DNA of 64,000 bases from an uncultured Anaerolineales bacterium (GCA_964651255.1 CAZYWU010000007.1:7817-71816), one strand, 5' to 3'. Positions 14,858 to 54,008 are shown, numbered from the stretch's first letter. Numbers and translations are program-made. Notes: generated by a model from the sequence alone, not told the origin.

Positions 14858-14902
14858 ATCCTCCTCACCTGTCGGGCAGGTTACTGAGCGGGATCCATGA
14901 CG

Positions 14903-15924: not shown

Positions 15925-15941
15925 GGCCACAGAGGTTGAGC

Positions 15942-16628: not shown

Positions 16629-16629
16629 C

Positions 16630-19931: not shown

Positions 19932-20473
19932 GGGAACCCCCGGGGACGACACATCACACAGACTGTCTGGGGAATGGCTTGCGGCGAGTGAGCCGGTAAG
20001 CCGAATTCTGTTGCGGCGTGCCTCCACGCCGCCGGCGATCATCTATCTGGGACGCCGATTGCTCGACGCCTCCTGCGACCTACCCGAGGCCTGGGACGAG
20101 CAGCCCCTGTCCCGGTTGCCCGGGACGCCTCATGCTTGGTCTTGCTCCCGATGGGGTTTGCCTGGCCGGCCCGGTCGCCCGGTCCGCCGGTGGTCTCTTA
20201 CACCACCGTTTCACCCTCGCTGACGTTGGCGGCAAGCCGCCAACGTTTAGCAATTTCCTCTCTGTTGCACTGTGCCGTCGGGTCACCCCGCCTGGACGTT
20301 ATCCAGCATCGTGCTCTGGGGAGTTCGGACTTTCCTCGAACATCGCAATGGATGCCCGCGATCGCCTGGCCCACTCGCCTCAGTGATAATACCATTGACC
20401 GCCTCGCGCGGCAAGTTTACACATTACACAGTGCTGATTGCCGTCAGCAACGCCGTGCGCCTCAGACGAACCT

Positions 20474-35138: not shown

Positions 35139-35477
35139 TTACTCCTGCTCGTCGTCAGCAGCCAGATCGATGGCCTCGACGTTCTCCTCATCGACGATCT
35201 CTACCAGTTGGCGCTCACGTTCGCGCCGCGCCTTGTCCTGCGCCCGGCTCGCGAGTTCCTGCCGCAGGCCTGAGGCCTGCTCAACGCGCCGGTTGAAGCG
35301 CTCCACCTGGCCGCCACGGTCTACCAGCCGCTGCGTCTGTCCCGTAAAGAACGGGTGGCAGGCGCTGCATATATCCGTGTGCAACTCGGGAACTGTCGCA
35401 CCGGTCACCCAGGTGTTGCCACATGAACAGATGACCCTGGCCTCTGGATAGTACTTGGGATGGATGTCTGCCTTCAT
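35139..35477 (-). CDS. rpmE: 50S ribosomal protein L31 (type A, Zn-binding) with a ~40-aa acidic C-terminal extension
   Basis: MKADIHPKY start. CxC...CxxC (CSCGN...CSACH). The tail after about residue 70 is Arg/Glu-rich and ends [20 protein letters not shown]. Confidence 0.85.
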
Positions 35478-35741
35478 TTATTGCTGCCTCCCCGCGTACA
35501 CAGAGACCTGCTTCCGCCCTCTGGTATACGGTTCGAATTTCACATAGCCATCGATGGTGGCGAACAGCGTGAAATCACGCCCGCAACCAACATTTTCACC
35601 GGGATGGATCCGGGTACCCACCTGACGAACAATGATCGTCCCCGCGGAGATCTCCTCACCGTCATAGCGCTTGATGCCACGCCTCTTGCCGGCGCTGTCC
35701 TGCTTGTTCGAGGTGCTTCCGCTACCTTTTTTGTGTGCCAT
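35478..35741 (-). CDS. rpmA: 50S ribosomal protein L27
   Basis: [12 protein letters not shown]...GRD canonical L27 N-terminus. Confidence 0.95.
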
Positions 35742-35780
35742 CTGCCGCTCCTCCTCTGCGAATAGGACGTCGCCGCAACG

Positions 35781-36092
35781 CTAGGCCGTGATGGCCTCAA
35801 TATGCAAGCGCGTAAGATTCTGACGGTGGCCCTTTTTCACCCGGATGCGTTCCTTGGGCCGGTACTTGAAGATCAAGAGCTTGGGACCGCGAATCTGATC
35901 GACGACGGTGGCCTTGACGCGGGCCGTTGCGATCACGGGTGTGCCGATCTCTACGCCATCGTCCCCACCAATCATGAGAACGCGGTCGAGTTCCACCGTA
36001 TCGCCAGCCTGAACGTCCAGGCGCTCAACATCGACCGTCTGGCCAACCTGCACACGATACTGCTTGCCACCGGTCTCTACGATTGCATACAT
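35781..36092 (-). CDS. rplU: 50S ribosomal protein L21
   Basis: MYAIVETGGKQYRV canonical L21 N-terminus. GGAGG RBS. Confidence 0.95.
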   Translation of the reverse strand: MYAIVETGGKQYRVQVGQTVDVERLDVQAGDTVELDRVLMIGGDDGVEIGTPVIATARVKATVVDQIRGPKLLIFKYRPKERIRVKKGHRQNLTRLHIEAITA

Positions 36093-36276
36093 GGGGTCTG
36101 TCCTCCGAAAGCCTGATCAGCAGGCGGTCAGCATAGTCATCTGCGGTCAGCGAACCGCCAGACAGCGATTATACCCGTGCTCACTCTGGTGTCAAAATCC
36201 GCGCCAGTTACCTGCCACGAAACGTGCAGAACACCCTGTTCTTCCGCAATGACACTGTGTCGCCTGAAGCCGGTTG

Positions 36277-36306: not shown

Positions 36307-38409
36307 ATGACGGAAACGGCCCACAACGGCCTCGTTCACTATGAAATTCAGCCCGGAAGGCCCGCCCCACTCGGCGCCACGGTTGCCGGCGAAGGTGTCA
36401 ACTTTTCCATCTACTCGACCAATGCGACCGGCATCGAGTTCTTGCTCTTTGACCGTTACGATCAGGATACACCATCTCAGGTCTTCTCTCTGAATCCAGA
36501 GGTCAATCGCACCTATTACTACTGGCATCACTTTATCCCGGGACTCAAGGCCGGCGCCATCTACGCATATCGAGCGTATGGTCCGTATCTCCCTGAGGAG
36601 GGGCTGCTGTTCAACCCCAACAAGGTATTGCTGGAGCCGTATACTCGAGCCGTGGCCTATGGCGACAACTGGCGACGAGCAGAAGCCTACGGCTATGACA
36701 ATAACACCCGGTCAGCGCTCAAGTCAGTCGTGGTGGACTGTAGCACGTACGACTGGGGCGATGACCGTCCGTTGCAGAGAGCGATCGAGACCACCGTCAT
36801 CTACGAAGTACATGTGCGCGGATTCACGCGGCACGCCTCTGCCGCGGTGAGCTACCCGGGAACCTATCGCGGCTTTATTGAAAAGATCCCCTACCTGAAA
36901 TCGCTCGGCATCACGGCGGTGGAACTCCTGCCGGTGCAACAGTTTGACCCACAGGAAGTGGAACGATCCAACCCGCTGACGGGTGAGCCGCTCACGAACT
37001 ACTGGGGCTATGCCCCGGTGGCCTTTTTCGCGCCCCACCAGGGCTATGCCTGCATGCCAGGGGGCACAGCTGTAGTGGACGAGCTGCGCGACATGATTAA
37101 GGCACTGCACGCCGCGGGCATCGAGGTGATCGTCGATGTAGTGTTCAACCACACCGCCGAAGGGGACGAGAACGGACCCACGATCTCGTTCCGGGGGCTG
37201 GAGAACAGCACCTACTATATGCTGACTGAGGACCAGCGCGAGTATCTCGACTTTACCGGGTGCGCCAACACAGTCAACGCCAACCATTCGATCGTGCGCA
37301 GGCTGATCCGGGATTGCCTGCGCCACTGGGTCCAGACCTACCACATCGATGGTTTTCGCTTTGATCTGGCCTCGGCGCTGTCTCGCGACTCGCAGGGCAG
37401 GCCGATCACCAATTCGCCCATCCTCTGGGAGATCGAGTCTGACCCCGTGCTGGCCGGCACCAAGCTCATCGCCGAGGCCTGGGACGCGTCCGGGCTTTAT
37501 CAGCTGGGCGGGTTCACCGGTGACCGCTGGGCAGAGTGGAATGGCCGTTTCCGTGACGACGTGCGCCGCTTTTTCCGGGGAGACCCCGGCACGGTGCGCG
37601 ATCTGGCATGGCGCATGACTGGCAGTTTCGATCTGTTCCGGAAAAAGGTCAGCTACACCTCTCACCGCAGCATCAATTTCGTCACCGCCCATGACGGTTT
37701 CACGCTGGCAGATCTGGTGTCCTACAACCGCAAGAACAACGCGGCCAACGGCGAGGATAACCGTGACGGGACCGATCATAACCACTCGTGGAATTGCGGT
37801 GTGGAGGGCCCCACCGACGATCCGGCTGTGCTGGCGCTGCGTGCCAGGCAGATGCGCAATCTGCTGGCTACCACTCTGCTGGCCCGCGGCACACCAATGC
37901 TCCTGGGCGGCGACGAGTTTGGACGGACACAGCGCGGCAATAACAATGCCTATTGCCAGGACAATGAGATCAGCTGGTTTGATTGGACGCTGGCCGACGA
38001 GAATGCAGCCCTGGTGCGCTTTGCGCGGAACATGATCGCGCTGCGGCAACGACACCCCACTCTGACCACGGCGCACAAGATGAATGGCAAGTCCTATGAC
38101 GCCATGCTGTATGATGGTGTCACCTTTCACGGGGTACACCTGAACCAGCCCGACTGGGGCTACCACTCGCATTCACTGGCGATGCATTTTCACGCCGTGT
38201 CCAGCGATACGGGACTGTACCTGATCATGAACGCATACTATGAGCCATTGACCTTTGATCTGCCACGGGACAAGCGGTGGCGAAGGCTCATAGATACATC
38301 GCTGGCGTCGCCAGATGATATCGTCGAGGATGAGCAACACGCGCTGCTGCTTACAGAGGATCGTTACCGCGCAGCGCCCCACTCTGTGGTCGTGCTCTGC
38401 GAAGACTAG
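36307..38409 (+). CDS. glgX: Glycogen debranching enzyme (GH13, isoamylase-type)
   Basis: Start is at MTETAHNG. N-terminal CBM48, GH13 regions (GFRFDLASAL, EAWD with the catalytic Glu, FVTAHDGFTLAD), about 700 aa. Confidence 0.85.
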   Translation: MTETAHNGLVHYEIQPGRPAPLGATVAGEGVNFSIYSTNATGIEFLLFDRYDQDTPSQVFSLNPEVNRTYYYWHHFIPGLKAGAIYAYRAYGPYLPEEGLLFNPNKVLLEPYTRAVAYGDNWRRAEAYGYDNNTRSALKSVVVDCSTYDWGDDRPLQRAIETTVIYEVHVRGFTRHASAAVSYPGTYRGFIEKIPYLKSLGITAVELLPVQQFDPQEVERSNPLTGEPLTNYWGYAPVAFFAPHQGYACMPGGTAVVDELRDMIKALHAAGIEVIVDVVFNHTAEGDENGPTISFRGLENSTYYMLTEDQREYLDFTGCANTVNANHSIVRRLIRDCLRHWVQTYHIDGFRFDLASALSRDSQGRPITNSPILWEIESDPVLAGTKLIAEAWDASGLYQLGGFTGDRWAEWNGRFRDDVRRFFRGDPGTVRDLAWRMTGSFDLFRKKVSYTSHRSINFVTAHDGFTLADLVSYNRKNNAANGEDNRDGTDHNHSWNCGVEGPTDDPAVLALRARQMRNLLATTLLARGTPMLLGGDEFGRTQRGNNNAYCQDNEISWFDWTLADENAALVRFARNMIALRQRHPTLTTAHKMNGKSYDAMLYDGVTFHGVHLNQPDWGYHSHSLAMHFHAVSSDTGLYLIMNAYYEPLTFDLPRDKRWRRLIDTSLASPDDIVEDEQHALLLTEDRYRAAPHSVVVLCED

Positions 38410-38455
38410 CCCGACGCCGGTCCGGCGAAAGGCGATCCGCATAGGGGAGATTTCC

Positions 38456-39535
38456 ATGACCGAATGCCCTGTCCCATCCTTCGATCCACAACGGCCGTTC
38501 AGGCTCTCGCAGCTGGCCAAGGCCGCCGGTTGAGGTGGCAAGCGGGCCTCGCAGGCCCTGGCGCGAGTTACGCGCCGTCTGGCTGATGTGTTCGACGAAT
38601 CGCTGTGGCCGGATCTGCTGGTGGGACTGACCCTCGCCGACGATGCCGCCGCCTGGCGGCTGAGTGATGACCGGGCACTGGTGGCGACAGTGGACTTTTT
38701 CACGCCGGTCATCGATGACCCCTACGACTATGGGGCTATCGCCGCCGCCAACGCCCTCAGCGATATCTATGCCATGGGCGCAACGCCCTTTATGGCCCTT
38801 AACCTGGCCGCCTTTCCGCCCGAGATGCCGGAGGATATCCTGCTGGAGATCCTGCGCGGGGGCGCGGAGAAGGTGCGCGAGGCCGGGGCTGTGGTAGCGG
38901 GCGGGCATACCATCGATGACGACGAGCCCAAGTTTGGCTATTGCGTGCTGGGCATGGTGCATCCGGCTCGCATCGGCCGCAAGTCGGCCGCGGTGCCAGG
39001 CGACCGGATCCTGCTCACCAAGCCGCTCGGCGTAGGGATCATCACTACAGCCTTCAAGGCCGACCTGGCGGACCCTGAGCACACCTCTGTCGCCGTGGAA
39101 TGGATGAAACGCCTCAACCGCCTTGCAGGCGAGGCCCTGATCACGATCGCCCGGCCCCACGCGGTCACCGATGTGACCGGCTTTGGCCTGCTGGGGCACG
39201 CGTGGGAGATCGCATCTCAGAGCGGCGTGCGGCTGCAGTTCCGTTATGATGCTCTGCCGTTCCATCCAGGCGCCCGCCAGTACGCCGACGACTTGCTTTT
39301 CCCCGCCCTGGCCAACAACAACATGGCCGACTATGGAGAGCACGTCACGTTCAGCCTCGGTCTGGAGTATGAACAGCAATTGTTGCTGTTCACGCCAGAG
39401 ACCTCTGGCGGCCTGCTGCTCACCTTGGCCCCGGGGGACGCAGAGCGCTACATCGCCGCCGCACAGGCGTTGGAGCAGCCGGTGTGGACCATCGGCGAGG
39501 TGACAGACGGCGAACCGGCGATCGCCGTCTACTGA
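38456..39535 (+). CDS. selD: Selenide, water dikinase (selenophosphate synthetase) with in-frame UGA selenocysteine at codon 26 (TGA 38531-38533)
   Basis: The ATG at 38456 opens MTECPVPSFDPQRPFRLSQLAKAAG-TGA-GGKRASQALARVTRRLADVFDE..., which continues in the same frame into the 38588 track ORF. The TGA aligns with Cys17 of E. coli SelD (GAG-C-GCK). The downstream sequence aligns to SelD throughout (LLVGxxxxDDAAV, TTDFFxPVIDDPYDYGxIAAxNAxSDIYAMG, GGHTIDD, DVTGFGLLGH). Confidence 0.85.
38544..38558 (+). promoter_or_regulatory. Candidate bacterial SECIS hairpin (GGGCC-ucgca-GGCCC) starting 11 nt 3' of the UGA
   Basis: Perfect 5-bp GC stem with a 5-nt loop, at the canonical distance from the UGA. 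It can be extended to a longer imperfect stem (GCGGGCC...GGCCCTGGC). Confidence 0.55.
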
Positions 39536-40989: not shown

Positions 40990-41892
40990 TCAGCGACGGC
41001 GCGCCCGCGCCACATCGCCCTCATCCGCGCCTTTGAGCGTCGAGGGGCCGTAGCGCCGCAGGAGCAGCAGCGCCACCAGCCAGGAAGCGAGGCCCAGCAC
41101 CATCTGCGACAGGGAGGGCCAGCTCAAAAACGTGGTGGCCACGGTCCATAGCGTGAATGCCATGGCGACATAGAGCATACATATCCACAGGCTTGCGGTA
41201 TTGTTATAGAGCCAGGTCAGGATCACCGACGCGCCCACCAGATAGATGCCCCAACCGATCAGGTGCAGGGGCAGCGTCGTGCCCACTGAGGTACCGATGT
41301 ACAGCGCCAGCAGATAGGGCAGCATCCACAGAATCCACATGATGGCCACGAGGTAGGAGGATTGTTCTGCCGTGGTGCGCCGCTGCGCGAGCGCCAGCGC
41401 GGTCCCCCGCCATCCGAACTCTCCTGTGGCCAGCGTCACCAGATTAAAGAGCAGGAGCAGCGGGATCAGCCCCGGCCTGGCCCCCGCTGAGGCAGCCTCG
41501 CCACCAGTCACCAGGCCGATGACCATCGCCGGAAGCATGATCGCGACAGGAAGTACGAGGGCGATAGCATACCAGCGCCCTTGCAGACGCCAGTGCCCCA
41601 TCCGCCCCCACAGGGTGCGCACCCCCTGCGCGCCCCCCAGGCGCGCGCTGATGCCCAGCCCACTCAGGAGAGGCCCGTAGGAGCCCAGCAGGAACAGCAC
41701 CAGCACCACGACATGGACGTTGTCCACGGGAGTCACGCCGCCGCTGAGCAACCGCGCTCCGGTGAGGGGCACATACCCGGCCCGCCCCGCCAGCAGCAGA
41801 GCGGGAAGCCAGGCCGCCCAGGAGATGAAACATGCCTGGATCGTATAGGCCCAGGCCGCCGAAATTCGCTTGCCACCGCTTCTGCGCAACAT
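40990..41892 (-). CDS. Polytopic membrane protein, possibly CPBP (CAAX protease/Abi) family intramembrane metalloprotease
   Basis: About 8 TM segments. GEFGWRG resembles CPBP motif 1 (EExxxR) and LPLHLIGW resembles motif 2. The assignment is tentative. Confidence 0.5.
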   Translation of the reverse strand: MLRRSGGKRISAAWAYTIQACFISWAAWLPALLLAGRAGYVPLTGARLLSGGVTPVDNVHVVVLVLFLLGSYGPLLSGLGISARLGGAQGVRTLWGRMGHWRLQGRWYAIALVLPVAIMLPAMVIGLVTGGEAASAGARPGLIPLLLLFNLVTLATGEFGWRGTALALAQRRTTAEQSSYLVAIMWILWMLPYLLALYIGTSVGTTLPLHLIGWGIYLVGASVILTWLYNNTASLWICMLYVAMAFTLWTVATTFLSWPSLSQMVLGLASWLVALLLLRRYGPSTLKGADEGDVARARRR

Positions 41893-42891: not shown

Positions 42892-44241
42892 CTAGATAGA
42901 GCTCAGCAGCACCCGTGCCGCAGTCTGCACCGGGTCCCAGACCGGGGAGAAAGGCGGCGCATAGGCCAGATCCATGTCCACCAGGTCCTGCACCGTGAGT
43001 CGCGCGGTCAGGCAAGCCGCCACGGCATCGATACGCTTGCCAGAGCCGGGGCCGCCGACAATCTGCGCCCCAAGCATGCGCCCGCTGCCCTTTTCAGCAC
43101 ACAGCTTGACCCTGATCTGCGCCGCGCCAGGATAATACCCGGCCCGGGTGCGGTCCTCGATCGTGGTGCAGGCATAGTCGATGCCCAGCGCCTGAGAATC
43201 GCGCTCGCGCAGACCCGTGCGGGCGATCTCTGTATCACCCACTTTGGTAATGGCCGTCCCGACCACCCCGGGGAAGGTCGCCTGCCCACCGGTCAGGTTC
43301 AGCCCGGCGACGCGGCCCATTTTGTTGGCCACCGTGCCCAGCGGCGCCCAAACCGGCCGCCCGCTGACGCGATCGACCGTCTCAGCACAATCGCCGGCGG
43401 CCCACACATGCGGGATCGTCGTGCGCATCCTCTCATCGACCCGGATCGCGCCATGAACGCCCAGCGGCACGCCCGCCCTGGCCGCCAACTCGCTCACCGG
43501 CTGCGCGCCGGTGCCAAAGACCACCAGATCCGCGGCTAGCGTCTGGTTGCTGAGCACCACGCCGGTCACGTGACCGTCCGAATCTACCAGCGCCCGCGGA
43601 CTCTCGTTCAAGTAGAGCATGACGCCGATATCCCGCAGCGCCTGCGTCGCCAGGGCGCCCATATCGGGGTCCAGCGTCGACATGACCTCCGCCCGACGGT
43701 GCACCAGCGCGGTGTCGATGCCGCGCAGGCGCAGCGCCTCCGCCACCTCCAGCCCGATATAGCCGCCACCGATGACCACGGCCTGTTGAGGAGCACGCTC
43801 GTTGATCGACTCCCACAAAGCGATGCCGCTGGCCAGGCCCCGCAAAGCGAACACGCCCGCGGCATCCGTGCCGGGGATGTTGGGGAACACCTCGCGAGCG
43901 CCGGTGGCGATCAGCAACTCGTCGTACGGCTGGACAAACGCGTCGCCCCCGCGCGCAGCCACTGTGACCTCTCGGGCCTCAGTGTCGATGGCAGTGACCT
44001 CGTGCCCGGTGAACACCTGAATGTTTTGCCGCGCAAATTGCTCGGGGCGGCGCGCGATCAACCGCTCGGGCCCGCTCACCTGCCCGCCCACCAGGTAGGG
44101 CATACCGCAGGCGGCGTAGGAGATGTGCTCCCCGCGCTCATAGACGATAATCTCGAGATCGGCGTCCCGACGGCGCGCCTGCGATGCGGCGCTCATACCC
44201 GCCGCATCGCCGCCGATCACCACCAGCCTGCGTGCCGCCAC
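42892..44241 (-). CDS. FAD-dependent pyridine nucleotide-disulfide oxidoreductase, CoA-disulfide reductase / NADH oxidase (Nox) subfamily
   Basis: GGDAAGMSAA FAD motif, redox Cys in SYAACGMPY, a second Rossmann (VIGGGYIGLE) and the dimerisation domain. Confidence 0.85.
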   Translation of the reverse strand: MAARRLVVIGGDAAGMSAASQARRRDADLEIIVYERGEHISYAACGMPYLVGGQVSGPERLIARRPEQFARQNIQVFTGHEVTAIDTEAREVTVAARGGDAFVQPYDELLIATGAREVFPNIPGTDAAGVFALRGLASGIALWESINERAPQQAVVIGGGYIGLEVAEALRLRGIDTALVHRRAEVMSTLDPDMGALATQALRDIGVMLYLNESPRALVDSDGHVTGVVLSNQTLAADLVVFGTGAQPVSELAARAGVPLGVHGAIRVDERMRTTIPHVWAAGDCAETVDRVSGRPVWAPLGTVANKMGRVAGLNLTGGQATFPGVVGTAITKVGDTEIARTGLRERDSQALGIDYACTTIEDRTRAGYYPGAAQIRVKLCAEKGSGRMLGAQIVGGPGSGKRIDAVAACLTARLTVQDLVDMDLAYAPPFSPVWDPVQTAARVLLSSI

Positions 44242-45506
44242 TACTGGATGTACCCCAGATACTGGCTCTGGCGTTCCAAAATCGTATCGAGCATCGCCTC
44301 TGCCGCCGCAACCTTGTCCACATTGAGGTCGGCCAACAGCGCCTGCATAACCACCTTCCTTGAGCCGGTCAGCACCGCCTCCGCGGTCAGTTCGTGGATG
44401 GCCACCTGGTTCTGCAACAGCCCCAGGAACCCGGCGGGGATCCTGGGCAACGGCGTGCCGTGCACACCGCTGCCGTCGATAGTGCCGGGCACCTCGACCG
44501 CGATATCGTTTGGCAGCCCGTCGATCAGCCCACGGTTGGGCAGGTTGAGTGCGGCCTCATGGGCCAGCTCGCCCGAGACCATCGCCTCAATGATGGGGAT
44601 CACGCGCTCGCCCTCCTGGAACTGGTCCAGACTGAGCACCGCCGCTGGCGCACGCCCATGGGCATACTCTTTGTAGTGGGCGTAAAAGTCGAGGATGCCC
44701 TTGTGATCGACCACATCGTGCGCCCACTGCAGGTACTCGCCCAGGTGGCTGTCGGTAGTAATGGGCAGCAGGTCATAACGCCGCAACAACTCCATGAACA
44801 GGCCGCGCTCGACACTCCCCTGAAAGTATTCGGGGGCCGCGGCACGGATATCCGGATAGGCGTCCTCGCCGGTATCTTTGTAGCGCGCCTCCAGCAGCAT
44901 GGAAAAGTGGTTCAAGCCGCCAGCCACCAGCTCCAGGTCCTCGATGGGGCGTCCCAGGATGCCGGGCAGGTGCCGGCCCAACGAGGCGATCTCATGGCAC
45001 AGGCCCACCAGATGCAGATCCGGGTACTTGTGGTGCACGGTGGTGCAGATGCGGCTCATGGGATTGGAAAAGTTGATCACCCAGGCGTCGGGGCAGAGCC
45101 GCATGACGTCGTCGCAGATCGCCAGGATCGGCGGGATGATCCGCAGGGAGTGAAACAGCCCGCCGGGGCCGCCATTCTCCCCATAGACCTGACGAAAACC
45201 ATACTGCTGCGGAATCCTCCAGTCCTGTTCCCAGAGCTCGAACCGGTCACCGACCTCAATCGAGATGATGATATAGTCGGCGCCCTTGAGGGCCGTCTCC
45301 CGGTCCGGCGTCGCCTCGATCGTGTAGGGCAGCCTGTGCTCCTTGACATGCGCCAGGCCGACCTCGTGCACCCGGGCCAGAGCCGTCGGATTGATGTCAT
45401 GCAGCACCACCGTGCTACCCTCCAGCACCTTGCTGCGAAAGACATCCGCCAGCGTGCCAAGGCCAAATTGCGCGCTCCCCGCCCCTACCAGAACCACACG
45501 AGCCAT
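44241..45506 (-). CDS. GH4 family glycoside hydrolase (NAD+/Mn2+-dependent alpha-glucosidase / alpha-galactosidase / 6-phospho-glycosidase type)
   Basis: N-terminal Rossmann VVLVGAGSAQFG, the GH4 Cys/His metal-site block (NFSNP...GLCHE), about 420 aa. Its stop overlaps the start of the downstream oxidoreductase. Confidence 0.85.
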   Translation of the reverse strand: MARVVLVGAGSAQFGLGTLADVFRSKVLEGSTVVLHDINPTALARVHEVGLAHVKEHRLPYTIEATPDRETALKGADYIIISIEVGDRFELWEQDWRIPQQYGFRQVYGENGGPGGLFHSLRIIPPILAICDDVMRLCPDAWVINFSNPMSRICTTVHHKYPDLHLVGLCHEIASLGRHLPGILGRPIEDLELVAGGLNHFSMLLEARYKDTGEDAYPDIRAAAPEYFQGSVERGLFMELLRRYDLLPITTDSHLGEYLQWAHDVVDHKGILDFYAHYKEYAHGRAPAAVLSLDQFQEGERVIPIIEAMVSGELAHEAALNLPNRGLIDGLPNDIAVEVPGTIDGSGVHGTPLPRIPAGFLGLLQNQVAIHELTAEAVLTGSRKVVMQALLADLNVDKVAAAEAMLDTILERQSQYLGYIQ

Positions 45507-45536
45507 GTCACACCTCCTTTGTCAATGACAACTTTG

Positions 45537-46658
45537 CTAGTCCCAGTATGCCTGCGGCGCGTCCTCCAGGACGGCCAGCGCTGCCCGTTGGCGGGCCATC
45601 CGGCTGCGCACTGCCCGATACAGCCCCTCGGTCGTCTCGTCGATATCCAGCAGGCTGTTAGTGTATGGATCTGCCTTGGTCGCGGCGTTGACCTGGGCGA
45701 TCCACTCTGGTTCCAGATCGCCCGCGCCCGAAAGCGCCCCGGCGAGCCCCGCTGCCACCGCCGCCAGGCAGTCGGTGTCGCGGCCAAAGTTGACCGCGGC
45801 GATCATGGCTGGACGAAGTTGTCCACCTGTGGCAGCCACGATGGCCAGTCCCTTGGCGACCACCTCGTTGGCCTGCGACTGGCCGTAGACGATATAGTTG
45901 CCGCCCGAATAGTAGGCGTTCAGCTCGTCCCACATACCCATAGGATCGCCGGGATGGCCGGCCGCAATCTCCAGCGCCCGCTCGACTTCGCGCTCGACAC
46001 GGTCATAGCCGCCATAGGGCGTATTCTTTTGCGAACGGTAGGCCGCGAACTCGCGCGCGGTGTCAAGCACCGACTCGATCGTGGCGTTCGGGCTGAGCGC
46101 GGCCGCCAGCGCCGCGTCATAGAGTGCGGCCCAGCGCAGCGCAAAAGTTGTCTCGTTCGCATAGACCAGGCCCACATCATAGACATCTGCCGCCGCTGCC
46201 GCGGGGTCCCCAGCGTTGATAATCCCCAGTGTGTGGCTGGCGCGCGCCATGGAGACGACGTTGTTGAACGGCCAGAGGCGCCCCAGCTCGCGCGGGGGCA
46301 CACCGGCACGCGCCATCTCGAGCAAGCTCTTGTCAAAGGGCTCCTGCTTGTACCGCATCCGGTCAGGATCAAGCACGTCCACCCAGACGGTCACAAAGTC
46401 GTCCGCGGTGATGCGGTCCTGCTTGCGAATGACGGCCAGGTTCATCAGTTTCTGCCGCTCGATGCCATCCTCGGTGGTGCCAGGCAACCGCTGCCAGTCG
46501 GTGTACGAGGTATAGTGCTTGTAGGATCGCAGTTCCTGCAAGGTGCCATAGGTTTGCTGGATGCGCTCGCGCGACCAGCCCTCGACCGCCGCGCCCATGG
46601 CCGAGCCGACCCACGAGCCGGCGATACATCCGCGTATCTTGTCCTTCAAAGTGAGCAT
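45537..46658 (-). CDS. ADP-ribosylglycohydrolase family protein (ARH/DraG fold)
   Basis: CIAGSWVGSAMGAAVEG N-terminal signature and the C-terminal dimetal Asp/Thr block (NFGRDTDCLAAVAAGLAGA). Confidence 0.85.
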   Translation of the reverse strand: MLTLKDKIRGCIAGSWVGSAMGAAVEGWSRERIQQTYGTLQELRSYKHYTSYTDWQRLPGTTEDGIERQKLMNLAVIRKQDRITADDFVTVWVDVLDPDRMRYKQEPFDKSLLEMARAGVPPRELGRLWPFNNVVSMARASHTLGIINAGDPAAAAADVYDVGLVYANETTFALRWAALYDAALAAALSPNATIESVLDTAREFAAYRSQKNTPYGGYDRVEREVERALEIAAGHPGDPMGMWDELNAYYSGGNYIVYGQSQANEVVAKGLAIVAATGGQLRPAMIAAVNFGRDTDCLAAVAAGLAGALSGAGDLEPEWIAQVNAATKADPYTNSLLDIDETTEGLYRAVRSRMARQRAALAVLEDAPQAYWD

Positions 46659-46736
46659 CTGTATCTCCTCTCCACGCTCAGACTGTCCACGCGGAGTATA
46701 CCCGATACCGCCCGCGCCGGCACGCTACCTCAGCGG

Positions 46737-47705
46737 CTAGCTGACGCGAATCCCCAGCGTCAGGTCGAGACGGTTACGCAGCGGCTCGCCCCGCACATAG
46801 CGGCCGAGGTTCTCCTCAAAGATCGCCAGGGCACGCTCGTCATAGGCGGGAGTGCTGCCCGAATAGTGCCCAGTAATGAGGACATTGTCCAGGTCCCAGA
46901 GGGGCGAGTCGGCGGGCAGGGGCTCGGGGTCCGTGACGTCTAGCCCGGCGCCCGCGATCTGACCGCTGCGTAGCGCCTCGATCAGTGCCTCCTGATCGAT
47001 GGTGCCGCCACGACCGATGTTGTATATGGTAGCAGTGGGCTTCATCAGGGCAAGCTGCCTGGCGCCGATAAGGTGCTGCGTCTCAGGCGTCAAAGGCACG
47101 GTCAGCACGACGAGATCGGCCTCCGGCAGCACGGCATCCAGCTCCGCTGGACTTACCATGCGTTCGATGCCGCGCACCTGTCGCTCCGGGTCGCGCCGCA
47201 CCCCGATCACGTGCATCTCCAGGGCGGCCGCCAGACGCGCTGTGCGCTGGCCGATGGCGCCCACACCGATCAGCAGCAGCGTCTTGCCCGCCAGCTCGAA
47301 CACGGGATGCGACCAGCCGCCCCGCAGCCACTCATGCCGGTCCTGAGCCCGTACCGCATCGGGAATCTGCCGCGCCAGCGCCAGCATCATGGCCAGCAGG
47401 TGCTCGCTGATCGGCACAGCATGGACCCCAGACGCATTGGTGACCACAAGATCGCGTTCACGGATCTCGGGATGCTCTATGATCCATTCGGCACCCGCGC
47501 CCCATTGCTGGTACCAGCGCAGATGCGGCATCGCCAGCACCGTCTCAAGCGCGATGTGTCCTGAAACGACCTCAATATCCGCCATCGCCGCGGCAATGGC
47601 GTCAACATCGCGGGTCACCAGCAGGTCGTAGCCGGTCGCCAGCAAGCGCAGCCGCTCCGCTGTCTCCGGGGCAAGATGATCCATGGCTAACAATACTGTG
47701 GGCAT
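46737..47705 (-). CDS. D-isomer-specific 2-hydroxyacid dehydrogenase family protein (second copy)
   Basis: Start is at MPTVLLAM with a GGAGGTG RBS. GxGxxG LIGVGAIGQRTA. Catalytic His in ITGHYSG. Confidence 0.8.
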   Translation of the reverse strand: MPTVLLAMDHLAPETAERLRLLATGYDLLVTRDVDAIAAAMADIEVVSGHIALETVLAMPHLRWYQQWGAGAEWIIEHPEIRERDLVVTNASGVHAVPISEHLLAMMLALARQIPDAVRAQDRHEWLRGGWSHPVFELAGKTLLLIGVGAIGQRTARLAAALEMHVIGVRRDPERQVRGIERMVSPAELDAVLPEADLVVLTVPLTPETQHLIGARQLALMKPTATIYNIGRGGTIDQEALIEALRSGQIAGAGLDVTDPEPLPADSPLWDLDNVLITGHYSGSTPAYDERALAIFEENLGRYVRGEPLRNRLDLTLGIRVS

Positions 47706-47803
47706 ACGCACCTCCGAATTCCCTTGGGCCAGCCTTTGCTGCCAGAGACGAGCACCGGCAGGAGGCTGTTCCTGCCGGTGGATGGAACGAGACAAACCGT
47801 GAA

Positions 47804-48229
47804 TCAGGCCAGATAAGCCATTTGCTTGGCGTCAGGCGTGTACTGGTGCAGCTCGATGCGGTTGCCATCGGGATCCGCCAGCCAGGCCTGGTAAGCGCCG
47901 TCGCCGCCGAGCTTGACCTCGCCCACCTCGACGCCACGCTCGCGCAGCACCGACACAGTGCGATGAATGTCCTCAACTTCGAGGCAGATATGGCGGTAGG
48001 ACTGGCCCTCGGCGGGCTCGCTCAGGGTGCCCACGAAGAGCTCGATAAAATTGCGCCCGCCGGCGTAAATGTACTGGCCGTGCCAGGTCCCATCGGGACG
48101 GCGGAACTCGAACGCTTTGGTCATGCCGAGCTGGCCGCAGTAAAAGTCCACCGAGGCCTGCAGGTCGGAGACGGTAAAGCAGACGTGCGCGAGGCAGGAG
48201 ACGATCTTGGCGTCGGACTGTTCGCTCAT
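47804..48229 (-). CDS. VOC-family protein (glyoxalase / bleomycin-resistance / dioxygenase fold)
   Basis: HVCFTVSDLQASVDFY beta-alpha-beta-beta-beta module repeated twice. 141 aa. Confidence 0.8.
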   Translation of the reverse strand: MSEQSDAKIVSCLAHVCFTVSDLQASVDFYCGQLGMTKAFEFRRPDGTWHGQYIYAGGRNFIELFVGTLSEPAEGQSYRHICLEVEDIHRTVSVLRERGVEVGEVKLGGDGAYQAWLADPDGNRIELHQYTPDAKQMAYLA

Positions 48230-48405
48230 GGTTGGGTTCCTTTCACTGGCAGTATGCGTACGATCTCACAGGCGTGCTGATTATATCACCCCCTGTCGGA
48301 GCCCGCGACAAAGCTCGCGCCCGTGGTTGGCAGCCGACCGCCGCCAGTGTATCCTTGGCGAAACGTCAGATCAGTAGCTCGAAACTGCCAGCAAAGGAGT
48401 GCCCC

Positions 48406-49635
48406 GTGACTGCAGAACCCAGGCCGCTCGAACAATACCGCGCCGATGACGGGCGTGGCCTCAAAATCCGCTGCGTCGAACCATTCTCCCTGCATGTGCC
48501 CACCCGGCCCTTTTCCACCGTGTGGACTTTTTGCCGCATCACTACCGAGGAGGGACTCGTGGGCCTCGGCGAGGGCATCGGCACCCCCGGCCCGGTGTGC
48601 GCCGCCATCCAGTACTTTGGCAACTCGCTGGTGGGTCAGTCCGCCTGGGACATAGAGCGGCTCTGGGTGGGCATGTACCGCGCCGCAGAGTTCAGCCGCA
48701 GCGGTGTGAACCAGGCCGCCATCAGCGCCATCGACATCGCGCTGTGGGACCTGGTGGGACAAAAGACCGGCCTGCCCGTCTATGCCCTGCTCGGCGGCAA
48801 GGTCAACGACCGCGTGCCGATCTACCACCACCCCTGGGATGAGGTAGGCGATGAGTCGGCCTTTGCCGAGGGGCGCCTGCGGCAGGGCTATGTGGAGGCG
48901 ACCCGGGACCTGGTGGCGCAGGGGATCATCGCCGGCAAGCTGGACCCCTTCCCGCGCGAGCCGGGCTATAACCGGGAGATCTCGCCCTTTGCACTGCGCT
49001 ATGCCACCGACATCATCCGACAGATACGCGAGGGCGGCGGCCCGGATTACAGGATCTGTGTCGAAATGCACGCGCGCTTTAATGTCGGCTCGGCACTACG
49101 CATCGCGCAGGCCCTGGAGCCCTACGATCCCTTCTGGATTGAGGAACCCGTGGCACCCGAGAGCCTGGCCGAGACGCGCGAGGTGCAGCGCGCCACCCCG
49201 CTGGCGGTGGCCACCGGGGAGCGCCTTTACCAGCGCATCGATTTTCGCGATGCGTTCGAGCAGCGCTGCTGCCGTATCATCCAACCCGACATCGCCCACG
49301 TAGGCGGCATCACCGAGATGAAAAAGATCGGCGCCCTGGCCGACGCCTACTATGTCACGGTGGCCCCTCACGAGTGGAACGGCCCGGTGACGCTGCTCGC
49401 GGGTGCGCATGTGGGCGCGACGCTGTCCAACCTGCTCATGTGCGAGTACCACATACAGCTCAAGGGCGTGCTCGAAGACACCATGCCAGATGGTTATCGC
49501 TATGATCCGCAGTATATTGACCTGCCCGAGACACCGGGCATCGGCGTGGCCTTTTCTGAGGCTTACATCCGCGAGCACCGTGTCGACCCGGATGCTTACG
49601 GGCGCACGGGCTATGTGGGGCACATCCGCTTCTAG
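48406..49635 (+). CDS. Mandelate racemase/muconate-lactonizing-enzyme family protein (enolase superfamily), third copy
   Basis: GTG start after an AAGGAG RBS (the track ORF extends upstream). AISAIDIALWDLVGQKTGLPVYALLGG capping/barrel junction. Metal ligands in VEMHARF / IEEP / QPD. Confidence 0.8.
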   Translation: MTAEPRPLEQYRADDGRGLKIRCVEPFSLHVPTRPFSTVWTFCRITTEEGLVGLGEGIGTPGPVCAAIQYFGNSLVGQSAWDIERLWVGMYRAAEFSRSGVNQAAISAIDIALWDLVGQKTGLPVYALLGGKVNDRVPIYHHPWDEVGDESAFAEGRLRQGYVEATRDLVAQGIIAGKLDPFPREPGYNREISPFALRYATDIIRQIREGGGPDYRICVEMHARFNVGSALRIAQALEPYDPFWIEEPVAPESLAETREVQRATPLAVATGERLYQRIDFRDAFEQRCCRIIQPDIAHVGGITEMKKIGALADAYYVTVAPHEWNGPVTLLAGAHVGATLSNLLMCEYHIQLKGVLEDTMPDGYRYDPQYIDLPETPGIGVAFSEAYIREHRVDPDAYGRTGYVGHIRF

Positions 49636-49728
49636 CCGGGAACGCACTTGACGGTCGCTGGCAAGATTAACGGCCAGGTACGCACAGTACAGCTATCAGA
49701 ACAAATATACAGACAGTAGGAGAGCGCC

Positions 49729-50997
49729 ATGCGCGTTGACTTGAAATACGGCAAGACGGGGCTGCAGGTCACCCTCCCCGATGACGCCACCGTGATTTAC
49801 CCCAAAGAGATGCCCGGGCTGCCAGACGAACAGGCGGCGCTGCGCGCTGCGCTGGCGATGCCGATCGGCATGCCCCCGCTCTCGCGCGTCGTCCAGCCTC
49901 GAGATCGTGTGGCGATAGTATTCAGCGACATCACCCGTCCCATGCCCTCCGACCGCGTGCTGCCAGTGCTGCTGCAGGCATTGGACGGCCTCGTCCCCCG
50001 CGAGCAGATCCTGCTGATCAACGGCACGGGGACGCACATGGCCAACACCCGCGAGGAATTGATCGGAATGCTGGGCCAGAAGATCGTGGACAACTATCGC
50101 GTCGTGAACCACGATGCCTGGGACAATGACAATCTGTTGGATCTGGGTATGACGCCGCAGGGCCATCGTGTGCTGGTGAACAAGGCCTTCTACCAGGCCG
50201 ATTTCAAGATCCTGACAGGCTTTATCGAGCCGCACATCTTTGCCGGGTTCAGCGGCGGGCCCAAGGCGGTGCTGCCGGCCGTGGCCGGTATCGACAGCAT
50301 CATGGATAATCATGGCTTTGCGATGCTGAACGATCCTCGTGCCACCTGGGGCCGCCTCGAGGGCAACCCGGTTTGGCAAGAGATGCGGGCTTTCGCCACA
50401 ATGGCCAAACCCGACATGATTCTTAATGTGACGCTCAACCGCCTGGGTCAGATCACAGGCGTTTTCGCCGGCCAGATGGACCTGGCCCACGCCCAGGGAG
50501 CGGCACAGGTGCGCGAGCACGCCATGGTGCCCGTGGACGGCCATTTCGATGTGGTGCTGACCACCAACAGCGGCTATCCGCTGGACATTAACCTGTACCA
50601 GACCGTCAAGGGGCTCTCGGCGGCCGCACAGGTGGTGAAACCTGGCGGAAGTATCATCGTGGCCAGCGAGTGTCGCGGCGGTATCCCCGACTATGGCGAG
50701 TACCGCAACCTGGTGGTGGAGGGCGGCTCGGCCGAGGGGATCCTCAAGCTGGTCGGCGCGCCTGGGTTCCGGCGGCACGACCAGTGGGAGGCGCAGTTGC
50801 ACGCCTTTATCATGCAGGCTGCACAAGTCTTTGTATACAGCGACGGCCTGAGCGACGACCAGGTGCGCGAGATGCTGTTTACGCCCGTTCACGATATCGA
50901 GGCCACGGTGACGCGCGAACTGGAACGACACGGGCCAGGCGCCCGCCTGCTGGTGATCCCCGAGGGGTCTCAGAGCATCCCCTACATCGCGTCTTGA
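49729..50997 (+). CDS. LarA-family protein (nickel-pincer-nucleotide-dependent lactate racemase / 2-hydroxyacid racemase-epimerase homolog)
   Basis: N-terminal DUF2088 pattern (VIYPKEMPGL...RDRVAIVFSDITRP) and the LarA C-terminal domain. About 420 aa. Confidence 0.8.
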   Translation: MRVDLKYGKTGLQVTLPDDATVIYPKEMPGLPDEQAALRAALAMPIGMPPLSRVVQPRDRVAIVFSDITRPMPSDRVLPVLLQALDGLVPREQILLINGTGTHMANTREELIGMLGQKIVDNYRVVNHDAWDNDNLLDLGMTPQGHRVLVNKAFYQADFKILTGFIEPHIFAGFSGGPKAVLPAVAGIDSIMDNHGFAMLNDPRATWGRLEGNPVWQEMRAFATMAKPDMILNVTLNRLGQITGVFAGQMDLAHAQGAAQVREHAMVPVDGHFDVVLTTNSGYPLDINLYQTVKGLSAAAQVVKPGGSIIVASECRGGIPDYGEYRNLVVEGGSAEGILKLVGAPGFRRHDQWEAQLHAFIMQAAQVFVYSDGLSDDQVREMLFTPVHDIEATVTRELERHGPGARLLVIPEGSQSIPYIAS

Positions 50998-51010
50998 GCA
51001 AAGGAGCATC

Positions 51011-53101: not shown

Positions 53102-53189
53102 TTCACTCCCGGGGAGGGGGGTGCGTGGATGACGCGCTCGCCAGCGCGAGCGGGTGCCTGGCCTGACGCGATCCGCGGCCGGGCCGCGC

Positions 53190-53474
53190 TCAGGTCGGGT
53201 TAGGCTTGTCGACAATGCGCTCGATGACAATCGAGCAGTCGGTCGCCAATGCCGCAAAGGCGCCCACCGCCGCCAGCACCGGCGCAAACACCACGCCCAC
53301 GGCAGCCAGCGTAAGCGGCAGCTCCAGCACACTCTCGCCATCGTGCTTGATCACGATACGCCGTATATTGCCTTCGTGCAGCAACTCTTTGACCTTGTCC
53401 ACCAGCTGCGACCCGTCGACCTTGATCTCCTCGCGACGCACTCCGGGATCTGCGGTCTCAAATGGCTCTGTCAT
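53190..53474 (-). CDS. Small membrane-anchored protein (DUF4342-like, tentative)
   Basis: Start is at MTEPFE with an AGGAGG RBS. Soluble N-terminal ~55 aa followed by one C-terminal hydrophobic helix. Confidence 0.55.
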   Translation of the reverse strand: MTEPFETADPGVRREEIKVDGSQLVDKVKELLHEGNIRRIVIKHDGESVLELPLTLAAVGVVFAPVLAAVGAFAALATDCSIVIERIVDKPNPT

Positions 53475-53510
53475 GATACCTCCTGCCAGCAAATGATACT
53501 GCAATGCCGT

Positions 53511-53774
53511 CTACCGCGAGACGACTCTGAACGTATATCCCAGCACGATGCCGAGAACGAATACCAGCGCCGCCACGTGTGGGAAACCGACTCCCAGCAG
53601 TATGGCGAGCACCAGCGGAAGCTGAATCAGGGTCTCGCCCTTACGACCTATGATCAGCGTCTGCTTCCACAACGTGTTCCAGGCCTTTACCAGCTGATCC
53701 CCGAAGGTCGGCTTGGGAGCCGCGCCTCCCTGACTGGCACCTGGCTGCTCATCGATGTCGAATGGTTCTGTCAT
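53511..53774 (-). CDS. Small membrane-anchored protein, paralog of the adjacent gene (DUF4342-like, tentative)
   Basis: Start is at MTEPFDIDE with an AGGAGA RBS. Same architecture and shared N-terminal MTEPF and (L/I)xLPL motifs as the neighbouring gene. Confidence 0.5.
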   Translation of the reverse strand: MTEPFDIDEQPGASQGGAAPKPTFGDQLVKAWNTLWKQTLIIGRKGETLIQLPLVLAILLGVGFPHVAALVFVLGIVLGYTFRVVSR

Positions 53775-54008
53775 GATGATCTCTCCTGAATTATGGCACA
53801 CATTCACAATCCAATCTCTATACGCAAACACTGCCTGCAGGTTGCTCGCTCGGGAGAGAATTCTTGGCTCCTACCCTGGCGCAAGCAAGGAACTATGGTC
53901 AACATACGGGAAGGCGATCCATCGCGCTCAACAAAGCCTGTTCGCGCCCGCCAAAGCAGGATGAAGGGAATGTGTCATAGCCAGGCACGCCTCGTGTGCA
54001 GCGCTATG

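What the first reader, a model, noticed from the sequence alone, without database searches (positions are those of the whole stretch)
38456..38565. selD is itself a selenoprotein: in-frame UGA at the catalytic Cys/Sec position plus a downstream SECIS-like hairpin
The six-frame track splits this gene into a 72-aa ORF ending in TGA (38531-38533) and a 315-aa ORF in the same frame. Joined through the TGA, the product aligns with selenophosphate synthetase from the N-terminus: RLSQLAKAAG-U-GGK corresponds to E. coli RLTQYSHGAG-C-GCK, and the rest matches SelD blocks. A perfect GC hairpin (GGGCC ucgca GGCCC) begins 11 nt after the UGA, which is where bacterial SECIS elements sit. This means the organism decodes UGA as Sec, so selA, selB and tRNA-Sec should exist elsewhere. 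Automated annotation will probably call this a pseudogene or a 5'-truncated selD. Other TGA-interrupted genes in this genome, such as fdhA or grdB, deserve the same check.
Basis: partly seen in the sequence, partly recalled or inferred. Interest (0 to 1): 0.8.

Follow-up and report, generated by a model that had tools for sequence, protein, structure and literature searches.

The report
Selenocysteine-containing selD gene, tandem-hairpin SECIS
The gene for selenophosphate synthetase in this uncultured Anaerolineae bacterium uses an in-frame UGA to put selenocysteine in its own active site; this is real and conserved, but it belongs to one of the two commonest bacterial selenoprotein families.

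Summary
Window 38456-39535 (+) is one selD gene. Its codon 26 (TGA, 38531-38533) aligns with the catalytic Cys17 of E. coli SelD. TGA sits at this codon in 74 of the 76 related loci where the site could be read, from Anaerolineae to Bacillaceae, Gemmatimonadota and Desulfobacteraceae. Sequence on both sides of the TGA evolves like coding sequence.

On its own it is weak evidence, since such a hairpin follows about 6% of random sites here. The better candidate for the SelB-binding SECIS core is the next hairpin, 38560-38576 (GGCGCG-AGUUA-CGCGCC). It keeps the same register in all three phyla, is 94% paired, shows compensatory changes in 4 of 7 pairs, has an invariant G-U in its loop, and fits the published bacterial SECIS model. 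A tandem layout of this kind was already noted for Clostridiales selD.

The window holds no selA, selB or tRNA-Sec. For this genome their presence is inferred only, from published tables for Anaerolinea thermophila.

Verdict: a correct call, a new member of a well-known kind, and of low novelty.

The parts
38444..38449 (+). Shine-Dalgarno-like GGGGAG, 6 nt before the ATG
   Evidence: Read from the sequence. Relatives L001, L002, L012 and L045 have GAGG/AGGAG before an ATG 25 codons upstream of the TGA.
38456..39535 (+). Complete selD coding sequence: 359 codons plus the stop at 39533-39535. Codon 26 is UGA, read as selenocysteine.
   Evidence: Translation. TIGR00476 at 353 bits, NF002098 at 327 bits. 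AIRS and AIRS_C domains. PDB 3u0o and 2yye.
38528..38542 (+). Codons 25-29, G-U-G-G-K: the glycine-rich N-terminal loop holding the catalytic Sec26 and Lys29.
   Evidence: Aligns with E. coli G16-C17-G18-C19-K20 and with the Aquifex G-C-A-A-K.
38531..38533 (+). In-frame TGA, the Sec codon
   Evidence: TGA at the homologous codon in 74 of 76 readable loci; TGT in L054 and L057 and in L081.
38544..38558 (+). Proximal helix of the tandem element.
   Evidence: 91% paired in 18 close relatives, with compensatory changes at pairs 15-27 and 18-24. The register shifts in more distant Anaerolineae. The loop sequence is not conserved.
38560..38576 (+). Hairpin 2: GGCGCG-AGUUA-CGCGCC, -10.3 kcal/mol. Loop at 38566-38570 with invariant G38567 and U38568. 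Probable SelB-binding SECIS core.
   Evidence: 100% paired in the 18 close relatives. 93.6% paired in 48 Anaerolineae. 93.9% paired in 33 sequences from three phyla, with changes on both sides in 4 of 7 pairs, against 30-54% paired when the partner is slid. G37/T38 are invariant. Meets the published bSECIS constraints.
38588..38590 (+). GTG taken by gene callers as the start of a truncated 315-aa 'SelD'; not a real start.
   Evidence: P0001 starts here. The codon is ATT, ATC, ATA or GTA in most relatives (alignment A2). I see no Shine-Dalgarno-like purine run upstream of it.

Best explanation
Window 38456-39535 encodes a full-length selenophosphate synthetase (SelD, selenide-water dikinase) whose catalytic residue 26 is selenocysteine.

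**Inferred mechanism**
- While the ribosome translates the N-terminal 25 codons, the mRNA just downstream of UGA26 folds into two adjacent hairpins.
[quoted passage not shown] - The proximal hairpin (38544-38558) is a conserved helper helix. It may act as a spacer or stacking element, or slow the ribosome.
- The product carries Sec in the flexible G-U-G-G-K loop that handles selenide next to the ATP site.
- Because SelA needs selenophosphate to make Sec-tRNA(Sec), this enzyme's synthesis depends on its own product.

**Shown here:** the gene identity, the UGA position and its conservation, coding-type evolution on both sides of the UGA, and RNA-level covariation of both hairpins.

**Inferred, not shown:** SelB binding, which hairpin it binds, actual Sec insertion, and the presence of selA, selB and selC in this genome.
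For: **Gene identity.** TIGR00476 at 353 bits (cutoff 125) and NF002098 at 327 bits (cutoff 299). AIRS and AIRS_C domains. In the alignment to E. coli SelD 3u0o, the TGA lies opposite Cys17, K29 opposite Lys20, and D63/D80/N99/D103 opposite D51/D68/N87/D91.

**Conserved UGA.** 74 of 76 readable related loci have TGA at this codon, at 38-93% protein identity.

**The N-terminus is translated in frame.** The 12 codons before the TGA differ mostly at third positions (441/233/900), and synonymous codon differences outnumber non-synonymous ones (668 against 465). An ATG with a Shine-Dalgarno-like sequence lies 25-26 codons upstream in several relatives.

**UGA is otherwise a stop.** About half of the roughly 49 genes in the window end in TGA.

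**Hairpin 2.**
- It keeps a fixed register and is 93.9% paired across Chloroflexota, Bacillaceae and Gemmatimonadota. Four of seven pairs show changes on both sides. Slid controls are 30-54% paired.
- The covariation links synonymous sites: CAA...UUG against CAG...CUG. It also links an Ala-to-Thr change to a silent CGC-to-CGU change.
- The loop G-U is invariant.
- It meets the bSECIS model: a 5-nt loop, a 6-bp stem, G at loop position 2 followed by U, 32 nt between UGA and loop (allowed range 16-37), and -10.3 kcal/mol against a threshold of -7.5.
- The clade-B version, GCAGGUNCUGC, nearly matches the E. coli fdhF SelB site GCAGGUCUGC.

**A natural control.** The one Cys (TGT) relative in this clade has lost the loop G and two stem pairs.

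**Literature.**
- SelD is the second most widespread bacterial selenoprotein family (PMC1794560, PMC13188914).
- Anaerolinea thermophila has SelD, SelA and SelB, and 4 selenoproteins (PMC5029168, Tables S1/S2).
- A SelB gene is reported in A. thermophila and in Anaerolineales single-cell genomes (PMC4959059).
Against: - The 64-kb window holds no selA, selB or tRNA-Sec. None lies beside selD in 50 Anaerolineae-group loci. The decoding machinery is therefore unverified for this genome.
- There is no protein-level or selenium-labelling evidence.
- Single-sequence folding is not better than shuffles.
- The G-U of the loop is also the first two bases of a Val codon at a hydrophobic helix position, so part of its invariance could come from the protein.
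- Hairpin 2 starts 26 nt after the UGA, whereas the E. coli fdhF minimal element starts after 11 nt. Hairpin 1 is the one at the E. coli-like distance.
Confidence: 0.9

Rival explanations
1. Hairpin 1 (38544-38558), is the SelB-binding SECIS. Hairpin 2 is conserved for another reason, such as protein constraint on the L-A-R-V-T-R helix or mRNA stability.
For: - It starts at the 11th nucleotide after the UGA, close to the 11-nt spacer of E. coli fdhF.
- Desulfobacteraceae selD genes carry their single GGUC-loop hairpin at this same position.
- It covaries in the close clade.
- Read as a 6-bp stem with a CGC loop, it barely meets the bSECIS rules: G at loop position 2 and 16 nt from the UGA.
Against: - Its loop sequence is not conserved (UCGCA, UCUGC, GCCAC, GCUAC, CCUGA and others), and its register shifts between clades. 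In the window's register it is only 47% paired over 48 sequences.
- Hairpin 2 shows covariation between synonymous sites, which protein constraint cannot explain.
- Hairpin 2 decays in the Cys relative.
Confidence: 0.15
2. The TGA is a true stop. Translation restarts at GTG 38588 or another internal start and gives an N-terminally truncated SelD without the Cys/Sec loop. This is what the public gene calls imply.
For: Gene callers produce such models: P0001 (315 aa), P0002 (304 aa), P0023 (324 aa) and P0007 (327 aa).
Against: - The internal starts differ from relative to relative. GTG 38588 is ATT, ATC, ATA or GTA in most relatives.
- The upstream 25 codons are under purifying selection in frame.
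- The truncated product would lack the Sec/Cys and Lys residues that align with E. coli Cys17 and Lys20. By established knowledge, not tested here, both are needed for catalysis.
- A real Shine-Dalgarno-like sequence precedes ATG 38456 and none precedes GTG 38588.
Confidence: 0.03
3. The TGA is a pseudogene lesion, or a sequencing or assembly error in a gene that normally has TGC or TGT.
For: A single-base change turns TGC or TGT into TGA. Cys versions exist in relatives (L054, L057, L081).
Against: The same TGA is present in 74 independent assemblies across several phyla, with intact reading frames and a covarying downstream structure. There are no other frame disruptions in the gene.
Confidence: 0.01
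4. UGA26 is read through without Sec, for example as Trp, Cys or Arg by near-cognate tRNAs, helped by the hairpins. This would resemble the non-Sec readthrough proposed for insect SPS1-UGA.
For: - Stem-loops next to the UGA promote Sec-independent readthrough in eukaryotic SPS genes (PMC4561486).
- selA, selB and selC are not demonstrated for this genome.
Against: - The loop motif matches the bacterial SelB-binding consensus.
- Cultured and single-cell Anaerolineae have SelA and SelB.
- Bacillaceae with the same tandem element have a SelB-like gene beside selD.
- The position is the catalytic Cys/Sec site.
Confidence: 0.04

Closest known systems
Sec-containing SelD (selenophosphate synthetase selenoprotein family), e.g. 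Aquifex aeolicus SelD (PDB 2yye/2zod), Haemophilus influenzae, Clostridia and Deltaproteobacteria
   Same: - The same enzyme family and domain layout.
- UGA at the same N-terminal loop position, G-U-x-x-K.
- The bSECIS lies inside the ORF directly after the UGA.
- SelD is described as the second most widespread bacterial selenoprotein (PMC1794560, PMC13188914).
   Different: Only lineage (an uncultured Anaerolineae genus, 87-88% nucleotide identity to MAG AnMBR.bin515) and sequence detail. The loop is G-U-G-G-K here, against G-U-A-S-K, G-U-G-C-K and G-U-A-A-K in other groups.
E. coli SelD (Cys17 form, PDB 3u0o)
   Same: The match covers residues 14-349 at E = 9.7e-71. The catalytic Lys and the Asp/Asn ligand positions are conserved.
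   Different: E. coli has Cys (TGC) where this gene has UGA/Sec, and it has no SECIS.
E. coli fdhF bSECIS (minimal 17-nt SelB-binding hairpin GGUUGCAGGUCUGCACC)
   Same: - A stem with a small apical loop carrying G-U.
- Anaerolineae clade-B hairpin 2 reads GGCGCAGGUNCUGCGCC, sharing GCAGGU-CUGC.
[quoted passage not shown]
   Different: - The fdhF hairpin starts 11 nt after the UGA. Here the G-U-loop hairpin starts 26 nt after it, with another hairpin in between.
- The window's loop is AGUUA, not GGUC.
- There is no bulged U.
Clostridiales-type selD bSECIS (Mariotti et al. 2015, Supplementary S6, PMC4561486)
   Same: It is described as having stem2 located downstream of stem1 rather than nested, with stem2 alone fitting the bSECIS model. 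That is the tandem layout seen here.
   Different: It was reported for Clostridiales only. Here the same layout appears in Chloroflexota (Anaerolineae), Bacillaceae and Gemmatimonadota. I could not view their figure to compare base by base.

Membership tests
SelD / selenide, water dikinase (TIGR00476, NF002098) | Score above the curated equivalog cutoff over the full length | tested here: met
   TIGR00476: 353.2 bits against 125, profile positions 1-309 of 311. NF002098: 326.9 bits against 299.
SelD / selenide, water dikinase (TIGR00476, NF002098) | PurM-like AIRS N-terminal and C-terminal domains | tested here: met
   PF00586 at 2.9e-28 (residues 62-168) and PF02769 at 1.6e-18 (residues 181-353).
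SelD / selenide, water dikinase (TIGR00476, NF002098) | N-terminal glycine-rich loop with catalytic Cys or Sec and Lys (E. coli Cys17, Lys20) | tested here: met
   G25-U26-G27-G28-K29 aligns with G16-C17-G18-C19-K20 of 3u0o.
SelD / selenide, water dikinase (TIGR00476, NF002098) | Conserved Asp/Asn metal and ATP ligands (E. coli D51, D68, N87, D91, D227) | tested here: met
   D63, D80, N99, D103 and the TDVTGFG Asp are identical in the alignment to 3u0o. Their roles are taken from established knowledge of the E. coli and Aquifex structures.
SelD / selenide, water dikinase (TIGR00476, NF002098) | Selenophosphate synthesis activity | not testable with these tools
   Needs an enzyme assay.
Bacterial selenoprotein gene (Sec-UGA) | In-frame UGA aligned with Cys in homologues, and with UGA in orthologues of other species | tested here: met
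   74 TGA and 2 TGT among 76 readable loci. A further TGT in L081. Cys in E. coli and Aquifex chains.
Bacterial selenoprotein gene (Sec-UGA) | Coding-type conservation on both sides of the UGA | tested here: met
   Upstream 12 codons: 441/233/900 differences by codon position. The downstream part is the SelD domain body.
Bacterial selenoprotein gene (Sec-UGA) | Selenium actually incorporated at the UGA | not testable with these tools
   Needs 75Se labelling or mass spectrometry.
Bacterial SECIS (bSECIS consensus model of Zhang and Gladyshev, as restated in PMC13188914) | Apical loop of 3-9 nt on an upper stem of 4-16 bp | tested here: met
   Hairpin 2 has a 6-bp stem and a 5-nt loop. Hairpin 1 has a 5-6-bp stem and a 5- or 3-nt loop.
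Bacterial SECIS (bSECIS consensus model of Zhang and Gladyshev, as restated in PMC13188914) | G in the first two loop positions, usually followed by G or U | tested here: met
   Hairpin 2 loop is A-G-U-U-A, and the G-U is invariant in 48 and in 33 aligned sequences. Hairpin 1 meets this only if read as a CGC triloop, and its loop is not conserved.
Bacterial SECIS (bSECIS consensus model of Zhang and Gladyshev, as restated in PMC13188914) | 16-37 nt between the UGA and the apical loop | tested here: met
   Hairpin 2: 32 nt (38534-38565). Hairpin 1: 15 or 16 nt, which is borderline (rule).
Bacterial SECIS (bSECIS consensus model of Zhang and Gladyshev, as restated in PMC13188914) | MFE of -7.5 kcal/mol or lower | tested here: met
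   Hairpin 2: -10.3. Hairpin 1: -9.5. Both together: -22.7 kcal/mol.
Bacterial SECIS (bSECIS consensus model of Zhang and Gladyshev, as restated in PMC13188914) | Binding by SelB | not testable with these tools
   Needs a binding or reporter assay. No bacterial SECIS family matched in Rfam.
Sec-decoding trait in this organism | selA, selB and selC (tRNA-Sec) present in the genome | not testable with these tools
   - They are absent from the 64-kb window and from the selD flanks of 50 Anaerolineae-group loci.
- Literature reports SelA and SelB in Anaerolinea thermophila UNI-1 (PMC5029168 Table S1) and SelB in Anaerolineales single-cell genomes (PMC4959059).

The most novel reading that the evidence does not exclude
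The tandem arrangement may be a distinct, obligatory two-part class of bacterial SECIS rather than one hairpin plus incidental structure. It consists of a variable proximal hairpin at +11 and a distal G-U-loop hairpin at +27, kept in the same register in Chloroflexota, Bacillaceae and Gemmatimonadota. In this reading the proximal helix acts like a eukaryotic Sec-redefinition element, or as a folded spacer that brings the distal SelB site to an effective 11-nt distance. That would imply a ribosome-SelB geometry different from the E. coli paradigm.
Probability: 0.25. Interest if true: 0.4.

Novelty: new member of a known kind. Interest (0 to 1): 0.2.

Why it matters
**For annotation.** This selD and nearly all its close relatives in public databases are called as 5'-truncated proteins that lack the catalytic residue. 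Correcting this marks the organism and its Anaerolineae relatives as selenocysteine users. It also flags that other UGA-interrupted genes may be mis-called in the same genomes.

**For biology.** It adds nothing new in kind, because SelD is one of the two most common bacterial selenoproteins. One minor point may interest specialists. The SelB-type hairpin sits behind a second conserved hairpin, and this tandem layout is shared across three phyla.

Tried and rejected
- **Single-sequence folding of 38525-38600.** It was no better than shuffles (z = -0.63), so I dropped it in favour of comparative analysis.
- **Rfam.** At gathering thresholds it found only RNase P in the window. A permissive scan of 38400-38700 gave only a 12.9-bit snoRNA chance match. 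No bacterial SECIS family matched.
- **ARAGORN.** It found no tRNA in the window and no tRNA-Sec near selD in 50 Anaerolineae-group loci, only Phe/Gly/Cys/Leu clusters.
- **Pfam scan of about 50 window genes.** No SelA, SelB, YbbB/SelU, YqeB/C, FdhA or Grd.
- **Motif scan for SelB-like GTPases (GH[VI]DHGK) in all loci.** Hits lay only beside selD in Bacillaceae and in one Coriobacteriia locus, none in Anaerolineae.
- **Scan of the window for hairpin-2-like elements 8-30 nt after an in-frame TGA.** Only selD lies in a coding frame. The other hits (TGA at 2943, 12458, 17467, 48368/48373) fall in non-coding frames or antisense to genes.
- **Helix 1 across all 48 Anaerolineae in the window's register.** Only 47% paired, because the register shifts between clades. 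It holds only within the close clade.
- **Reassigned UGA (genetic code 4 or 25).** Rejected because about half the window's genes stop at TGA.
- **Promoter and terminator scan around selD.** Nothing above shuffle expectation.

Full report
**1. The observation**

- An ATG at 38456, preceded by GGGGAG at 38444-38449, opens a frame that meets TGA at 38531-38533 (codon 26).
- The frame then continues without another stop to 39535.
- The 72-aa and 315-aa ORFs of the six-frame listing are two pieces of this one frame.

With the TGA read through, the 359-residue product is a full-length selenophosphate synthetase.
- NCBIfam TIGR00476 scores 353 bits (cutoff 125) and NF002098 scores 327 bits (cutoff 299).
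- Pfam finds AIRS and AIRS_C.
- E. coli SelD (PDB 3u0o) matches at E = 9.7e-71 and Aquifex SelD (2yye) at 2.2e-57.
- In the E. coli alignment the TGA lies opposite Cys17 and K29 opposite Lys20. The Asp/Asn ligand positions D51, D68, N87 and D91 are matched by D63, D80, N99 and D103.

**2. Where the window comes from**

A scan of one genome per prokaryotic species found 80 related loci.
- The closest are Anaerolineae/Anaerolineales MAGs at 93% protein identity.
- The window is collinear with two of them at 87-88% nucleotide identity.
- The order isoamylase-like glgX, selD, convergent HEAT-repeat gene is kept in more distant relatives.

The source is therefore an uncultured member of the Anaerolineae (Chloroflexota).

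**3. Is the UGA a sense codon?**

- The homologous codon could be read in 76 of the related loci. It is TGA in 74 and TGT in 2.
- The TGA-bearing loci span Anaerolineae, Bacillaceae, Gemmatimonadota, Desulfobacteraceae, Coriobacteriia and others.
- The twelve codons before the TGA differ between relatives mainly at third positions: 441/233/900 pairwise differences at codon positions 1/2/3 in the 18 closest sequences. Synonymous codon differences outnumber non-synonymous ones, 668 against 465. The N-terminal peptide is therefore translated in the same frame as the enzyme body.
- Several relatives have an ATG with a Shine-Dalgarno-like sequence 25-26 codons upstream of the TGA.
- TGA is otherwise an ordinary stop here. 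About half the window's genes end with it, which excludes a reassigned code.
- The alternative internal start at GTG 38588 is not conserved; it is ATT, ATC, ATA or GTA in most relatives. It would also remove the catalytic loop.

**4. The RNA element**

- The region folds no better than shuffles (z = -0.63).
- A hairpin of at least 5 bp begins 8-14 nt after about 6% of random sites in this G+C-rich window.
- Within the 18 closest relatives it is 91% paired, with compensatory changes at two pairs that fall on third codon positions. It is therefore a real, selected structure.
- Its loop sequence is not conserved, and its register shifts in more distant Anaerolineae. In the window's register it is only 47% paired over 48 sequences.

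*The next hairpin (hairpin 2, 38560-38576, GGCGCG-AGUUA-CGCGCC).* It follows one nucleotide later.
- It keeps exactly the same distance from the UGA in all 48 Anaerolineae sequences and is 93.6% paired there.
- It is also present in Bacillaceae and Gemmatimonadota. Over 33 sequences it is 93.9% paired, 4 of 7 pairs show changes on both sides, and slid controls are 30-54% paired.
- The covariation links synonymous choices (Gln CAA with Leu UUG, Gln CAG with Leu CUG). It also links an Ala-to-Thr change with a silent CGC-to-CGU change 14 nt away. Protein constraint cannot explain this.
- The second and third loop bases, G38567 and U38568, are invariant.

*Fit to the published model.* The bacterial SECIS model requires a 3-9-nt loop, a 4-16-bp stem, a G in the first two loop positions (usually followed by G or U), 16-37 nt between UGA and loop, and an MFE of -7.5 kcal/mol or lower (PMC13188914).
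- Hairpin 2 meets all of these: a 5-nt loop, 6 bp, A-G-U, 32 nt and -10.3 kcal/mol.
- Hairpin 1 meets them only marginally.

*Comparison with known elements.*
- In the wider Anaerolineae clade, hairpin 2 reads GGCGCAGGUNCUGCGCC. This is close to the E. coli fdhF SelB site GGUUGCAGGUCUGCACC, whose sequence I confirmed in 5419 E. coli genomes.
- The one Cys (TGT) relative within this clade (P0050/L081) has lost the loop G (Val to Ile) and two stem pairs. This is what is expected if hairpin 2 is kept for Sec insertion. It is a single case.
- Desulfobacteraceae selD genes instead carry a single GGUC-loop hairpin at the hairpin 1 position.
- A tandem layout, with 'stem2 downstream of stem1' and stem2 alone fitting the bSECIS model, was already noted for Clostridiales selD by Mariotti et al. 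(PMC4561486, Supplement S6). The architecture is therefore not new, only wider in distribution than reported there.

**5. The decoding machinery**

- The window has no tRNA at all, and its only Rfam match is RNase P.
- Pfam scans of about 50 genes found no selA, selB, selU/ybbB or yqeB/C, and no other familiar selenoprotein family.
- No tRNA-Sec or SelB-like gene flanks selD in the Anaerolineae loci. SelB-like genes do sit beside selD in the Bacillaceae loci that share the tandem element.
- Published comparative genomics lists Anaerolinea thermophila UNI-1 as SelD+, SelA+, SelB+, YbbB-, YqeB+, YqeC+ with 4 selenoproteins (PMC5029168).
- A single-cell study reports SelB genes in A. thermophila and in Anaerolineales SAGs (PMC4959059).

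**6. Annotation**

Of the 120 best database relatives, all but one cover only 74-91% of the query and are 269-381 aa long.
- P0001 begins at the equivalent of GTG 38588.
- P0002, P0007 and P0023 begin at other codons after the TGA. P0023 is an NCBI entry named SelD that starts inside hairpin 2.
It matches earlier reports that selenoprotein genes are often stored as truncated entries (PMC4607533).

**7. Comparison with what is known, and verdict**

SelD is described as one of the two most widespread bacterial selenoproteins, and Chloroflexi were already known to encode selenoproteins (PMC1794560; PMC13188914). This gene passes every membership test that sequence analysis allows, both for SelD and for a Sec-UGA gene with a bSECIS.

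The finding is correct and useful for annotation, but it is a new member of a well-known kind. The one point of modest specialist interest is the tandem-hairpin element. The G-U-loop hairpin lies 26 nt from the UGA, behind a second conserved helix, and this layout is shared by three phyla. Whether the proximal helix is a functional partner remains open and is testable with reporters.

Noticed in passing
window 19981-20377 (-): Bacterial RNase P RNA, class A: 268 bits, full-length model match. It abuts the start of a PRAI/trpF-like ORF at 19260-20042 (-).
   Followed up: no
window 9015-19102 and 44241-53050: Sugar and sugar-acid catabolism genes. There are three enolase-superfamily (MR_MLE) paralogues at 11278-12804 (-), 17996-19102 (-) and 48232-49635 (+). 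They lie among GH42, GH2, GH4 and GH20 hydrolases, two 2-hydroxyacid dehydrogenases and a LarA-like lactate racemase.
   Followed up: no
window 12521-14857 (-): The GH2 glycoside hydrolase ORF has a GNAT acetyltransferase domain at its C-terminus, roughly residues 679-762 of the stop-to-stop segment. This may be a fusion or two unresolved genes.
   Followed up: no
window 35139-36116 (-): Ribosomal protein genes L21, L27 and L31 lie head to tail in one reading frame, separated only by TAG and TAA stops.
   Followed up: no
L081 359-1462 (protein P0050): A Cys (TGT at 461) version of this selD clade, 61% identical. Downstream, the hairpin 2 region reads GGCCCGCATCACGCGGC: the loop G is lost (Val to Ile) and two stem pairs are broken. 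It looks like a decaying SECIS remnant after a Sec-to-Cys change.
   Followed up: partly
L063, L069-L072, L075-L077, L079 (Desulfobacteraceae and related selD loci): These Sec-selD genes have a single hairpin with a GGUC loop (for example CAGCCC-GGUC-GGGCUG) at the position of hairpin 1 and no hairpin 2. The SelB-type loop therefore sits at two different distances from the UGA in different phyla.
   Followed up: partly
L047, L049, L050, L053, L055, L056, L058, L061, L080, L065: SelB-like ORFs of 625-666 aa, with GHIDHGK near the N-terminus, lie within 6 kb of selD in Bacillaceae and one Coriobacteriia locus, on the opposite strand in the Bacillaceae. No Anaerolineae locus has one.
   Followed up: partly
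L014, L015, L017, L019, L022, L030, L067: A tRNA-Phe/Gly/Cys(/Leu) cluster lies about 0.2-1.9 kb upstream of selD in several Anaerolineae relatives. It is absent from the window.
   Followed up: no
window 40990-41892 (-), 53154-53789 (+), 53793-54458 (+), 57686-58357 (+): Four ORFs with coding-like composition have no Pfam match at E of 1e-5 or better.
   Followed up: no
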